Below are positions 34,601 through 37,600 of a stretch of 64,000 nucleotides of DNA, piece by piece (position 1 is the first letter of the stretch; each line of letters begins with the position of its first letter). Origin of the DNA: Hydrolagus affinis. Lineage: Eukaryota. The stretch lies in the NCBI GenBank assembly GCA_012026655.1, contig JAAILG010001122.1, positions 1 through 64,000 on the forward strand. The letters are read 5' to 3'. Position numbers: made by a program.

Positions 34601-37600
34601 GGTCCTTTGTCATAAAATCAATGTTCCTTCTGACACACAGAAGCTTGAAATAGCGATAGAAAATGGGACTGCCACAGAGTTAGAAGCCAAAAAGTACCGT
34701 CCAGAAAATTCACCATCTTTTAATCGTGTTAATATATGCTGAGAAACAGCGACTGAATAAAAAAATATTTCTATCTTCTCCTGTGTTTTGTTGGTGACGC
34801 CGTGTGAGCCCTGGTGTGTTTTTTTTTCCTTTCAAAACTTGCAAACCTTTTAAAACATCATCCTTTTTAAACCAGAATGGTTTTTAAATTTACGTACAGA
34901 GAGTTATTCGGGACTCCTCTGTGTGTATCTCAGAATGGAATTAATCCTTCAGTGCTGACATAAAGGGTTCATTAAAAATATATATTTTTTTGTCATGCAA
35001 TTTAAAGTGTGCACCAATTAACAAAGGGTTGTGAACGAGAGCAGACCGAAAAATCGGTTGCCGATACAAATTTATTTCTGTGCAAATACCTCTTACTGTA
35101 ACTGTACGTGATAGTGTCATTTACTAAAAGCGGTTCAGATATGTGTCTTCCTGGATTACATTGGGAAAACCTGAGGCGGAGGGACATCACACAAGCTGAA
35201 GGACACCGGGCTAAGCTGAACGGCGAGGGAGAGGTGATGGGATGAATTGGGAAATGCTGCAATTACATTTTCTCATTTGCTTTCACTTAACCTGCGAAAC
35301 GCAATCAATCGATCAATCAATGCGGATCAATATCTTTCCTTCGACAGCCCTGTCAACGAGGAGAGCCCTGGACTCAAAATTGGTCTGGAGCAAATCTGCT
35401 GCCAATGAAACCGGGACTTCACTTAAGAACGTGTGACCTTATCGGATCCGAACACACGGGTACACACACACACTGTTGTGTTATTAATTAGGTATCAGGT
35501 ATCACCCACAGTGCACAACTTATATAAACCTATAAACAAGGGTTGTGTGTTTCGATCATGATCCTTTGCTTTTGATATAGCGCCTTATCGCGTCCTCGAA
35601 GCGTCTCAAAAAAAGTTTCACCGTGTTTACTGACTGAAAAGAAAAGTGCACTGGCTTGTGCTATTTGCAGGCCAAAGCGGCATTAAAGTTCACCTGAGCA
35701 GGCAGGTTCATATGACTATCAGCCTGGACAATCAGCTCGAAGCGCAGCTCCTGTAGCTCAGTGGTTAGAGCGCTCGCCTTACAAGCGAGAGACCCGAGTT
35801 CGATTCCAAGCAGGACAGGGCGAAACCTTGGACAAGTTTCCTTACTCCACACACACACGCACACACGCCTGATAATAATCCATCAAAAGAAACAATAATA
35901 AAATCGGTCATTTCAATCTACGAACTGCTTATGGGGAGACTGCTGTGAGCAATTGGCTGCCGCATTTCGCCCACAAAATATACAGTCAATTCACTTTACA
36001 GTATATTCTGTCAAGCGCTTTGAGAACACTTTGAGTCTAGAAGGTGTGAAAAGGCACTATATCAAATGCAAGGATTATTATTATTATAATAAAAGCCCAC
36101 ATTTAAATCTACAAACTTGTGACTCGTGTTTCTCTCAAACTTAGAGAGGAATCGAAGATTAAAGCAAAGCTTAACTGAAACAGACAGCGTCAGGAAGGGA
36201 GCAATGAAAGAAGGAGTTGAGGGACAGGGAGGAACATATGCTTTGTCTTATGATCGAGTTAATGATGTTTTTCAATTGAAAATAAAATACGACCAGCGGA
36301 AATTAAAGGAACTGCAAATCCCAGCCCGGGCCCCGACATGATTCAATCATAAAAATTACCACAATAACACATGGCAGAGACGAGGGGAAAATACTTTCAC
36401 ATTCCAGCCCATTGTTTTGCTGACTGAGACTAAGCCATCCATTTTATAATAATAATAATCCTTGCATTTGATATGGCAGCTTTTCACATCTTATCGACGT
36501 CACAAAGCGCTTCACAGAATATATACTGTAAAGTGAATTGACTGTGTGTATATATATATTATATATATATATGGTCGAAACGCAGTAGCCGAATTGCGCA
36601 CGGCGGCGTCCCCCCCTCCCACACACACAGTCGTGGATTGAAAATGACCAATTTTATTATTGTGGGTATTTTTCAGACGGATTAGTCAGCAATAAAGGAA
36701 AATAAGAACGTAAGAATAAGGAGCAGGTGTAGGCCATTCGGCCCCTCAAGCCTGCCCCCACGCCATTCAATAAGATCGTGGCTGATCTTTTAATCTAACT
36801 CCACCTGTCCCCCCCTTATCCCCCGTATCCCCCTTAATCCCTTTATCCAGAAGAAATCTATCATTAGGGGGTCTCTTTGCTTTTCGGAAACATTAAAGTC
36901 TTGAGCTGTTTTCCACAATGAGTAGAGGCATTTCCTGATGAGGTCTTTTTTCACACCTCAGCATGAAACACACTGCATGTGGGGCTGAATAGTCTCACAG
37001 CGGTCGCAGTCACGGAAACTGCCATTCCTCCCCCAGCCGGTGCGATGAACACCTCCCACCCCTCCCTCCGAAGAAGACATAAATCCTCGTTGTTTGAAAA
37101 GGATTGAGTCTCCCGGGGTGATCTCCAATTCATCAAGTGTTTGAGGTTACTTATTAACCTGCTCTGTGACTCCATTTTCCAGGTTCTTCATTTATTTCAG
37201 AGTTTGTTTATCTTGTTACATCCTGCTGTCTTTTTTTAAAAAAAATATATGTAAATATATATATTTATTCCTCGCTCTTTCAGAAATAGGCTGTCAATTT
37301 TCGTTCTGTTGGTGCCTCCGACGCTCTATTCCCGCACTGGACAAAGAGGCAGATTTATGTACCCTGGGTTACTTATTGGTGCTTCATAATTCGAAGTTTT
37401 TGTTCAGAGACTAGCGCTGGCTGATCGGTAAAAGAACAAGTAAGATAATACAACTTATTGGACATAAATCGGTGGGGCTGGTGGGTGGGGGAGTTGTATT
37501 ATCTTACTTGTTCTTTTACCGATCAGCTAGGCTCTAGTCTCTAAACCAAAGACTTCAAATTACGAAGAACAAATTCACCGAAACGGATCGAATGCGTCTA

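What the first reader, a model, noticed from the sequence alone, without database searches (positions are those of the whole stretch)
37382..37567. Unique 186-bp fold-back with a perfect 36-bp inner stem and a G-rich loop
Seen: 37420-37455 (GCTGATCGGTAAAAGAACAAGTAAGATAATACAACT) is the exact reverse complement of 37492-37527. The outer 38-40 bp of each arm still pair, but with several mismatches, two G.T pairs and two 1-nt bulges. The 36-nt spacer contains GGTGGGGCTGGTGGGTGGGGG. The sequence is unrelated to any SINE or LINE here and I see no clear target-site duplication. Inference: an old MITE should decay evenly along its arms. A flawless inner half next to a clearly diverged outer half suggests either selection on a hairpin RNA (pre-miRNA or endogenous hairpin siRNA, long enough for Dicer or ADAR) or repeated arm-to-arm conversion through cruciform or template-switch repair.
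Basis: partly seen in the sequence, partly recalled or inferred. Interest (0 to 1): 0.7.

Follow-up and report, generated by a model that had tools for sequence, protein, structure and literature searches.

The report
Fold-back repeat with a re-copied core
A real 200-base inverted repeat in non-coding, SINE-rich DNA whose inner 36 base pairs are flawless, most likely because one arm was re-copied from the other at the DNA level; nothing here shows that it is an RNA gene.

Summary
37420-37455 is the exact reverse complement of 37492-37527. The repeat continues in register to 37375-37574, 200 bp rather than 186. The inner arms match at 36 of 36 columns. The outer arms differ at 10 of 47 (8 substitutions, 2 one-base indels). 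Placing all 10 differences outside the inner 36 columns has p=0.002, or 0.023 for a clean run anywhere.

The window holds no second copy. There is no target-site duplication above chance. No Rfam family matches. No Pfam domain passes its cut-off in 170 ORFs. The loop has no canonical G-quadruplex motif.

Best reading: an old quasi-palindrome, either a relic fold-back MITE or a local inverted duplication, about as old as the neighbouring SINE copies. Its loop-proximal core was later homogenised by template switching or arm-to-arm conversion.

A hairpin-RNA gene is not excluded. However, the stem (about 80 bp) and loop (36 nt) lie far outside canonical miRNA geometry.

Genome copy number, orthologues, transcription and the taxon could not be tested. 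No eukaryotic DNA collection was available.

The parts
37375..37419 (.). Left outer arm (45 nt), the diverged part of the inverted repeat
   Evidence: Aligns in register with the reverse complement of 37528-37574 at 37 of 47 columns. Differences are 8 substitutions (37378, 37381, 37386, 37392, 37401, 37405, 37415, 37419) and 2 one-base indels. Self-hit 37375-37574.
37420..37455 (.). Left inner arm (36 nt), the perfect part
   Evidence: Exact reverse complement of 37492-37527. 33% G+C and one intact CpG (read).
37456..37491 (.). 36-nt spacer or loop, G-rich in its 3' half on the + strand
   Evidence: Sequence. No canonical G3+ quadruplex motif, only a two-tetrad (G2+) pattern. No significant similarity to either arm or either flank: 78 to 915 of 1000 shuffles score at least as well.
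37492..37527 (.). Right inner arm (36 nt), the perfect part
   Evidence: Exact reverse complement of 37420-37455.
37528..37574 (.). Right outer arm (47 nt), the diverged part
   Evidence: Partner of 37375-37419. Carries the two extra bases, at 37531 and 37551.

Best explanation
This is a non-coding DNA quasi-palindrome that arose in two steps.

**Step 1 (inferred).** An inverted repeat of about 83-bp arms around a short spacer arose long ago. It was either a fold-back-type MITE copy or a local inverted duplication; which of these is unresolved. It then decayed neutrally to about 79% arm-to-arm identity. That is roughly the age of the SINE copies around it.

**Step 2 (inferred).** Much later, the 36 bp of one arm next to the loop were re-synthesised using the other arm as template. 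The route could be intra- or inter-strand template switching at a stalled fork (quasi-palindrome correction). It could equally be short-tract conversion after a break at the hairpin or cruciform tip. This erased all differences in that tract and left the outer differences in place. The step may have happened at this locus or, if the element is a MITE, in its master copy.

The perfect stem is therefore a footprint of a DNA-level mutational process, not of selection. No function is needed to explain it.

**Shown:** the structure, its limits, the uneven distribution of differences, and the absence of coding, Rfam, TSD and second-copy signals in the window.
**Inferred:** the order of events and the mechanism.
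For: 1. Two-tier identity: 36 of 36 inner columns match against 37 of 47 outer. p=0.0021 that all 10 differences fall outside the inner 36 columns. At the outer rate, the chance of 36 clean columns is about 2e-4. The 95% upper bound on inner divergence is about 8%, against 21% outside (my arithmetic).
2. The perfect tract is in exact register with the older outer pairing, which needs only two 1-nt indels over 47 columns. This is what correction of a pre-existing quasi-palindrome predicts. A new hairpin that merely landed inside an old one would not be expected to keep register.
3. The outer arms look like neutral decay. There are 4 transitions and 4 transversions, and 2 of the transitions are CpG-type, in a window with CpG o/e 0.66. 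Outer substitutions are 8 in 45 aligned pairs, about 9% per arm. The 14 near-full SINE copies lie 5-12.5% (median 7.7%) from their window consensus.
4. The single CpG in each inner arm is intact.
5. The mechanism is documented:
   - Template switching between imperfect inverted-repeat arms homogenises them and can invert the spacer (PMC8604942, passages).
   - It can convert several mismatches to perfect pairing in one event and create whole perfect stems (PMC8794818 and PMC10710096, passages).
   - Copied tracts in great apes have a median of 12 nt and a maximum of 128 nt, so 36 nt is long but within range (PMC7954356, passage).
6. Nothing suggests a gene:
   - 0 of 76 ORFs of 90 aa or more in the window reach a Pfam cut-off.
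   - 0 of 94 ORFs of 55-89 aa in 29-46 kb match at E<=0.001.
   - No Rfam match at the locus at E<=1.
   - Only tRNA-like SINE heads pass gathering scores in the whole window.
Against: - The change-point was chosen after seeing the data. Allowing a clean 36-column run anywhere gives p=0.023, so chance clustering is not negligible.
- There is no outgroup or second copy. The ancestral imperfect state of the inner tract, the donor arm and the single-event nature of the change are all unobserved.
- A 36-nt tract is three times the median template-switch length reported in great apes (PMC7954356).
- Perfect complementarity is also what strong selection on pairing would keep.
- The G-rich loop gives no support as a fork-stalling trigger, because it has no canonical G3+ quadruplex motif. 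The great-ape study linked events to poly(dA:dT) tracts rather than to more complex motifs.
Confidence: 0.5

Rival explanations
1. It is an ordinary multi-copy MITE or fold-back transposon copy. The arms are the element's long terminal inverted repeats. The 'perfect inside, imperfect outside' pattern is simply the structure of the family's master copy, inherited at insertion, and nothing happened at this locus.
For: The size (200 bp), long inverted arms, short non-palindromic spacer and lack of coding capacity all fit a MITE. Nearly palindromic MITEs of this kind are known, for example Made1 with 37-bp TIRs around 6 bp (abstract of PMC1784062). Absence of a second copy in 64 kb says little, because only families of very high copy number would be expected twice in so short a window.
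Against: No target-site duplication: the best exact flanking repeat is 5 bp, the modal value at random sites. The 7-of-8 repeat at 37347-37354 and 37600-37607 is at chance level, with about 0.7 expected among about 1800 boundary pairs tried (expectation is my arithmetic). The terminal bases resemble no superfamily terminus that I can recall (recalled, not tested). In MITEs the termini, not the interior, are the parts kept alike for transposase binding (established knowledge), so the pattern here is the reverse. Even a master copy would need the same second step to acquire a perfect core.
Confidence: 0.22
2. It is a functional hairpin RNA gene: a long hairpin precursor of endogenous siRNAs, or an unusually long or young miRNA precursor. 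Purifying selection on pairing keeps the inner stem perfect.
For: Both strands fold into very stable hairpins, with about 71 pairs in the + strand MFE and z of -15.5 and -19.5. A perfect duplex of 36 bp or more is long enough for Dicer or ADAR (established knowledge). Template switching has produced hairpins that became miRNA genes (PMC10710096). Hairpin-RNA loci giving endo-siRNAs exist in Drosophila (search listing only, PMC10317233 and PMC10292708). Giant miRNA hairpins arose repeatedly in invertebrates (abstract of PMC12553114), and the taxon of this window is not established.
Against: No Rfam family matches at E<=1, although two other hairpins nearby drew weak sub-threshold miRNA hits. 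The stem of about 80 bp and the 36-nt loop lie outside the canonical 30-35 bp and <15 nt, and vertebrates are reported to lack long miRNA hairpins (abstract of PMC12553114). Real pre-miRNAs carry mismatches and wobbles that aid processing (passage in PMC10710096), whereas this core has none. The four transitions in the outer arms give 1 wobble on + and 3 on -, so no strand is favoured. No promoter, exon or host gene was found within 8 kb on either side. The window holds no homologous target sequence.
Confidence: 0.07
3. It is a repeat of one age with chance clustering. The whole 83-bp repeat arose at once and has decayed evenly, and the ten differences happen to lie in the outer part.
For: The partition was chosen post hoc. 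A clean run of 36 or more columns somewhere in 83 with 10 differences occurs in 2.3% of simulations. A first-stage scan of much sequence will pick out such extremes.
Against: p=0.0021 for the run being at the loop end. Two of the ten differences are CpG transitions, so hypermutable sites do not explain the rest.
Confidence: 0.1
4. It is an assembly or sequencing artefact, such as a fold-back chimera or a collapsed or mis-polished hairpin.
For: Hairpin-forming DNA is error-prone for polymerases and for consensus polishing (established knowledge). The scaffold has a gap at 22510-22609.
Against: Fold-back chimeras give long, fully perfect palindromes, usually without a unique spacer (established knowledge). 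Here the outer arms differ at 10 of 47 columns and the spacer is a unique 36-nt sequence. The gap is 15 kb away. There is no match to plasmid records, so no sign of vector sequence.
Confidence: 0.04

Closest known systems
Quasi-palindrome correction, or homogenisation of inverted-repeat arms by replication template switching (TSM). Sources: PMC8604942, PMC8794818, PMC10710096, PMC7954356; listing only for PMC7202029 and PMC13100816.
   Same: An imperfect inverted repeat contains a tract in which all mismatches are gone at once. The tract is in register and the spacer is short (36 nt; the yeast study examined spacers up to 70). The outcome is a perfect stem that needs no selection.
   Different: The tract is long: 36 nt against a great-ape median of 12, though below the maximum of 128. 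The event is inferred from one sequence. There is no ancestral state, so the defining before-and-after comparison is missing.
Palindromic MITEs that fold into hairpins, for example Made1 and the hsa-mir-548 family (abstract of PMC1784062).
   Same: A short non-coding element made almost wholly of two long inverted arms around a few unpaired bases, forming a very stable hairpin if transcribed.
   Different: Made1 is 80 bp, has many genomic copies and has documented miRNA products. This element is 200 bp, has no TSD, has no second copy in the window, and its arms are better matched inside than at the termini.
Hairpin-RNA (hpRNA) endo-siRNA loci of Drosophila (search listing only: PMC10317233, PMC10292708) and long miRNA hairpins of invertebrates (abstract of PMC12553114).
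   Same: A long, highly paired inverted repeat, longer than a canonical pre-miRNA.
   Different: Those loci are defined by small-RNA output and, for hpRNAs, by homology to target genes. Neither could be tested here, and the window holds no homologous sequence. The taxon is unknown, and vertebrates are reported to lack long miRNA hairpins.
Arm-to-arm gene conversion in large genomic palindromes, and centre-break revision of palindromes in mammalian cells
   Same: DNA-level exchange between the two arms keeps them identical. Events starting at the centre would act first on the loop-proximal part.
   Different: Those cases concern kilobase-to-megabase arms with ample homology. Here the arms are 83 bp and the flanking homology is only 79%, which favours polymerase template switching over canonical recombination (inference).

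Membership tests
MITE / fold-back DNA transposon | Terminal inverted repeats, small size, no coding capacity | tested here: met
   83-bp arms in a 200-bp element. No frame stays open across the element; the longest ORF lying mostly inside it is 41 aa.
MITE / fold-back DNA transposon | Target-site duplication flanking the termini | tested here: not met
   The best exact direct repeat over 40 x 45 boundary pairs is 5 bp, equal to the mode at 298 random sites. A 7-of-8 repeat is at chance level. An old TSD could have decayed, so this is weak negative evidence.
MITE / fold-back DNA transposon | Many dispersed copies in the genome and a related autonomous element | not testable with these tools
   No eukaryotic DNA collection was available. 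The window holds no second copy and no transposase domain in 170 ORFs.
Canonical animal pre-miRNA | Stem of about 30-35 bp with a terminal loop under 15 nt (abstract of PMC12553114) | tested here: not met
   About 71 pairs in the MFE structure over 83-column arms, with a 36-nt spacer.
Canonical animal pre-miRNA | Match to a described miRNA family | tested here: not met
   No Rfam match at the locus at E<=1 or at gathering score. miRBase and MirGeneDB were not available.
Canonical animal pre-miRNA | Precise ~22-nt reads with 2-nt 3' overhangs; conservation across species | not testable with these tools
   No read data and no related genomes.
hpRNA / endo-siRNA hairpin locus | Long, highly paired inverted repeat | tested here: met
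hpRNA / endo-siRNA hairpin locus | Transcription, Dicer-dependent siRNAs and homology to a target gene | not testable with these tools
   No expression data. The window holds no homologous sequence, and the genome was not searchable.
Template-switch (quasi-palindrome) correction | A perfect reverse-complement tract in register within an imperfect inverted repeat, of a length within the reported range | tested here: met
   36 of 36 columns inside arms that match at 37 of 47 columns, with no shift of register. Reported copied lengths have a median of 12 and a maximum of 128 (PMC7954356).
Template-switch (quasi-palindrome) correction | An ancestral or outgroup sequence with the imperfect state, and a cluster of changes on one branch explained by one four-point switch | not testable with these tools
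   No orthologue or paralogue could be obtained.
G-quadruplex motif in the loop | Four runs of G3 or more separated by 1-7 nt | tested here: not met
   No canonical motif in 37440-37510; only G2+ (two-tetrad) patterns. The window has 92 G-strand and 97 C-strand canonical motif starts elsewhere.

The most novel reading that the evidence does not exclude
The fold-back is a young, lineage-specific hairpin-RNA gene caught early: a quasi-palindrome whose core was perfected by one template-switch event and which is transcribed and diced into endogenous siRNAs or a non-canonical long-hairpin miRNA.
Probability: 0.06. Interest if true: 0.6.

Novelty: new member of a known kind. Interest (0 to 1): 0.25.

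Why it matters
As it stands, this is one clean single-locus example of a known mutational process, in which inverted-repeat arms are homogenised at the DNA level. It also carries a warning: a flawless long stem is not evidence of RNA-level selection.

It would matter more in two cases:
- If orthologues showed the before-and-after states, it would be an unusually long (36-nt) template-switch correction.
- If small RNAs mapped to it, it would be a case of hairpin-gene birth by that route.

Tried and rejected
1. **Larger palindrome.** Flanks 37275-37374 and 37325-37374 against their mirror segments score at shuffle level (194 and 196 of 300 shuffles at least as good). The high score for 37175-37374 against 37575-37774 comes from self-complementary AT-rich low complexity at 37229-37281 and 37716-37770. 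The segments between it and the fold-back do not pair.
2. **Loop as a partial direct copy of the arm start** (ATTGG..CATAA..TCG): not significant, with 166 of 1000 shuffles at least as good.
3. **TSD.** None above chance.
4. **G-quadruplex loop as a fork barrier.** No canonical motif.
5. **Other copies in the window.**
   - blastn word 7 finds only G-rich low-complexity hits to the loop.
   - nhmmer --max finds only noise at E of 3 or more.
   - The 36-mer with up to 3 mismatches occurs only in the two arms.
6. **Searches outside the window.**
   - Exact 36-mer in genome contigs (bacteria and archaea only): 0.
   - blastn against plasmid records: no match.
   - Neither search bears on a eukaryotic genome. 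They exclude only vector or prokaryotic origin.
7. **Sequence in print.**
   - The 36-mer: 0 papers.
   - An 18-mer of the window's SINE: 0 papers.
   - Papers printing RNA letters, or sequences only in figures or supplements, would be missed.
8. **Coding context.**
   - Pfam on 76 of the 77 ORFs of 90 aa or more gave three hits (E 0.002-0.006), all below their curated cut-offs. The ORF across the N run was left out.
   - Pfam on 94 ORFs of 55-89 aa in 29-46 kb gave nothing at E<=0.001.
9. **Broad taxon.** A protein search with a SINE-derived ORF found no candidate. The taxon stays unknown.
10. **Protein-based search for copies of the fold-back.** Not attempted, because no frame stays open across it.
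11. **Collections not available.** No supplementary files were consulted.

Full report
**Observation.** 37420-37455 is the exact reverse complement of 37492-37527. With up to 3 mismatches, the 36-mer occurs only at these two places in the 64-kb window, and in 0 of 100 shuffles. The 36-nt spacer 37456-37491 holds the G-rich string. The repeat is therefore 200 bp.

None of 200 shuffles does as well on either strand. As DNA, 37375-37574 folds to -55.9 kcal/mol (z -13.9). Beyond 37375 and 37574 there is no symmetry above shuffles.

**Two-tier identity.** The inner arms match at 36 of 36 columns. The outer arms (37375-37419 against 37528-37574) match at 37 of 47.
- The 8 substitutions are at 37378, 37381, 37386, 37392, 37401, 37405, 37415 and 37419.
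- The 2 one-base indels are extra bases at 37531 and 37551.
- Four substitutions are transitions, and two of those are CpG-type.

With 10 differences in 83 columns, the chance that all lie outside the 36 loop-proximal columns is 0.0021. Allowing either end gives 0.0043, and a clean run anywhere gives 0.023. The contrast is real at a nominal level, but the partition was chosen after looking at the data.

From, by my own arithmetic:
- At the outer rate, 36 clean columns have probability of about 2e-4.
- The 95% upper bound on inner divergence is about 8%, against 21% outside.
- The inner tract is therefore at most about two-fifths as old as the outer repeat.

**Surroundings.** The window is 42% G+C with CpG o/e 0.66. 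It has one N run, at 22510-22609. It is packed with a tRNA-headed SINE:
- The copies at 35746-36090 and 36446-36684 hit dozens of other places at 70-92% identity.
- Fourteen near-full copies lie 5-12.5% (median 7.7%) from their window consensus.
- The outer arms have 8 substitutions in 45 aligned pairs, about 9% per arm. The old repeat is thus roughly coeval with these SINE copies.

The stretch 36685-39500 around the fold-back has no other copy in the window. I found no sign of a gene:
- 0 of 76 ORFs of 90 aa or more reach a Pfam cut-off. Three weak hits fall below their cut-offs, and one of the 77 ORFs, the one across the N run, was left out.
- 0 of 94 ORFs of 55-89 aa in 29-46 kb match at E<=0.001.
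- Rfam finds only five tRNA-like SINE heads at gathering score.
- Rfam finds nothing at the fold-back at E<=1.

**Transposon or not.**
- The size, arms and lack of coding capacity fit a fold-back MITE.
- No target-site duplication rises above chance. The best exact flanking repeat is 5 bp, the mode at random sites. A 7-of-8 match at 37347-37354 and 37600-37607 is expected about 0.7 times among the boundary pairs tried.
- The window holds no second copy by blastn word 7, by nhmmer --max or by pattern search.
- That absence says little, because only a family of very high copy number would recur within 64 kb.
- Genome-wide copy number, which is the decisive test, could not be run. The only DNA collections open were prokaryotic genomes (exact 36-mer: 0), plasmids (no match), phages and E. 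coli.
- Whatever the origin of the old repeat, a MITE alone does not explain the pattern. Transposase binding keeps the termini alike, not the interior (established knowledge).

**Mechanism.** The perfect tract sits in exact register inside the older imperfect pairing. That is the expected result when a pre-existing quasi-palindrome is corrected by copying one arm from the other. Passages I read document the process:
- Template switching between imperfect inverted-repeat arms homogenises them and can invert the spacer (PMC8604942).
- The same process can turn several mismatches into perfect pairs at once and create whole perfect stems (PMC8794818; PMC10710096).
- In great apes the copied tract has a median of 12 nt and a maximum of 128 (PMC7954356). 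A 36-nt tract is long but within range.

Short-tract conversion after a break at the hairpin tip would leave the same footprint, and I cannot separate the two. Three of the ten differences (37419/37528, the extra base at 37531, and 37415/37533) lie within six columns of the tract's outer edge. This may mark a switch point, but that is speculation. The G-rich loop has no canonical quadruplex motif, so I do not invoke it as a trigger.

**RNA-gene reading.** Nothing positive supports it.
- The stem (about 71 pairs in the MFE) and the 36-nt loop lie far outside canonical pre-miRNA geometry of 30-35 bp and <15 nt. Vertebrates are reported to lack long miRNA hairpins (abstract of PMC12553114).
- The core has no wobble or mismatch, although such features aid processing (passage in PMC10710096).
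- The four outer transitions give one wobble on + and three on -, so no strand is favoured.

It is still not excluded. The taxon is unknown (searches gave nothing). Long hairpin precursors exist in invertebrates (PMC12553114). Template-switch hairpins have become miRNA genes (PMC10710096). I put this reading at about 6-7%.

**Other rivals.**
- Chance clustering in a repeat of one age: about 10%.
- Assembly artefact: about 4%. The diverged outer arms and the unique spacer argue against a fold-back chimera.

**Verdict.** This is a real and statistically striking fold-back. Its most economical explanation is a known DNA-level process acting on an old inverted repeat in neutral, SINE-rich DNA. It is a new instance of a known kind and of modest interest. 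That would change if orthologues or small-RNA data, which I could not examine, show the before-and-after states or processing into small RNAs.

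Noticed in passing
window 33832-33933: A second strong hairpin (RNA MFE -56.3 kcal/mol, z -12.1; about 38-bp stem, 13-nt loop). It is built from the 3' end of the window's SINE in both orientations. The arms differ by 4 transitions, all G.U on the + strand, and 1 transversion. It drew weak sub-threshold Rfam miRNA hits (mir-2574 at 32.5 bits against a gathering score of 90). Possible origins are a snap-back or inverted duplication of a truncated SINE, or two insertions.
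   Followed up: partly
window 43125-43234 (also 43079-43326): A third hairpin (RNA MFE -58.3 kcal/mol, z -11.1) formed by two SINE 3' ends joined tail to tail through their (TAA)n tails. This looks like one SINE inserted in inverted orientation into the tail of another. It drew weak sub-threshold Rfam miRNA hits (MIR1888 at 33.6 bits against 72).
   Followed up: partly
window-wide, e.g. 35746-36090, 9980-10325, 7868-8213, 24505-24844, 51542-51886: A very abundant tRNA-headed SINE of about 345 bp. It has an internal (CA)n stretch and a (TAA)n-type tail. There are dozens of full or partial copies in 64 kb, and 14 near-full copies lie 5-12.5% from their consensus. ARAGORN and Rfam call the heads tRNA genes. 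The family and the taxon were not identified.
   Followed up: partly
window 37229-37281 and 37716-37770: AT-rich inverted repeat flanking the fold-back at about 95 and 140 bp (local score 25 against a shuffle mean of 11.5). It is mostly self-complementary (AT)n and A/T runs, and the segments between it and the fold-back do not pair. Probably low-complexity coincidence.
   Followed up: partly
window 36035-36089 and 36444-36498; 13369-13427 and 13710-13768: Inverted pairs of SINE copies (87% and 76% complementary arms, 354 and 282 nt apart). Inverted SINE neighbours are common in this window.
   Followed up: no
window 29707-29984 and many other sites: C-rich then G-rich low-complexity tracts. 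The window has 92 G-strand and 97 C-strand overlapping starts of canonical quadruplex motifs, so G-rich strings like the fold-back's loop are commonplace here.
   Followed up: no
window 22510-22609: A run of 100 N (assembly gap or masked stretch), 15 kb from the finding. Left as it is.
   Followed up: no
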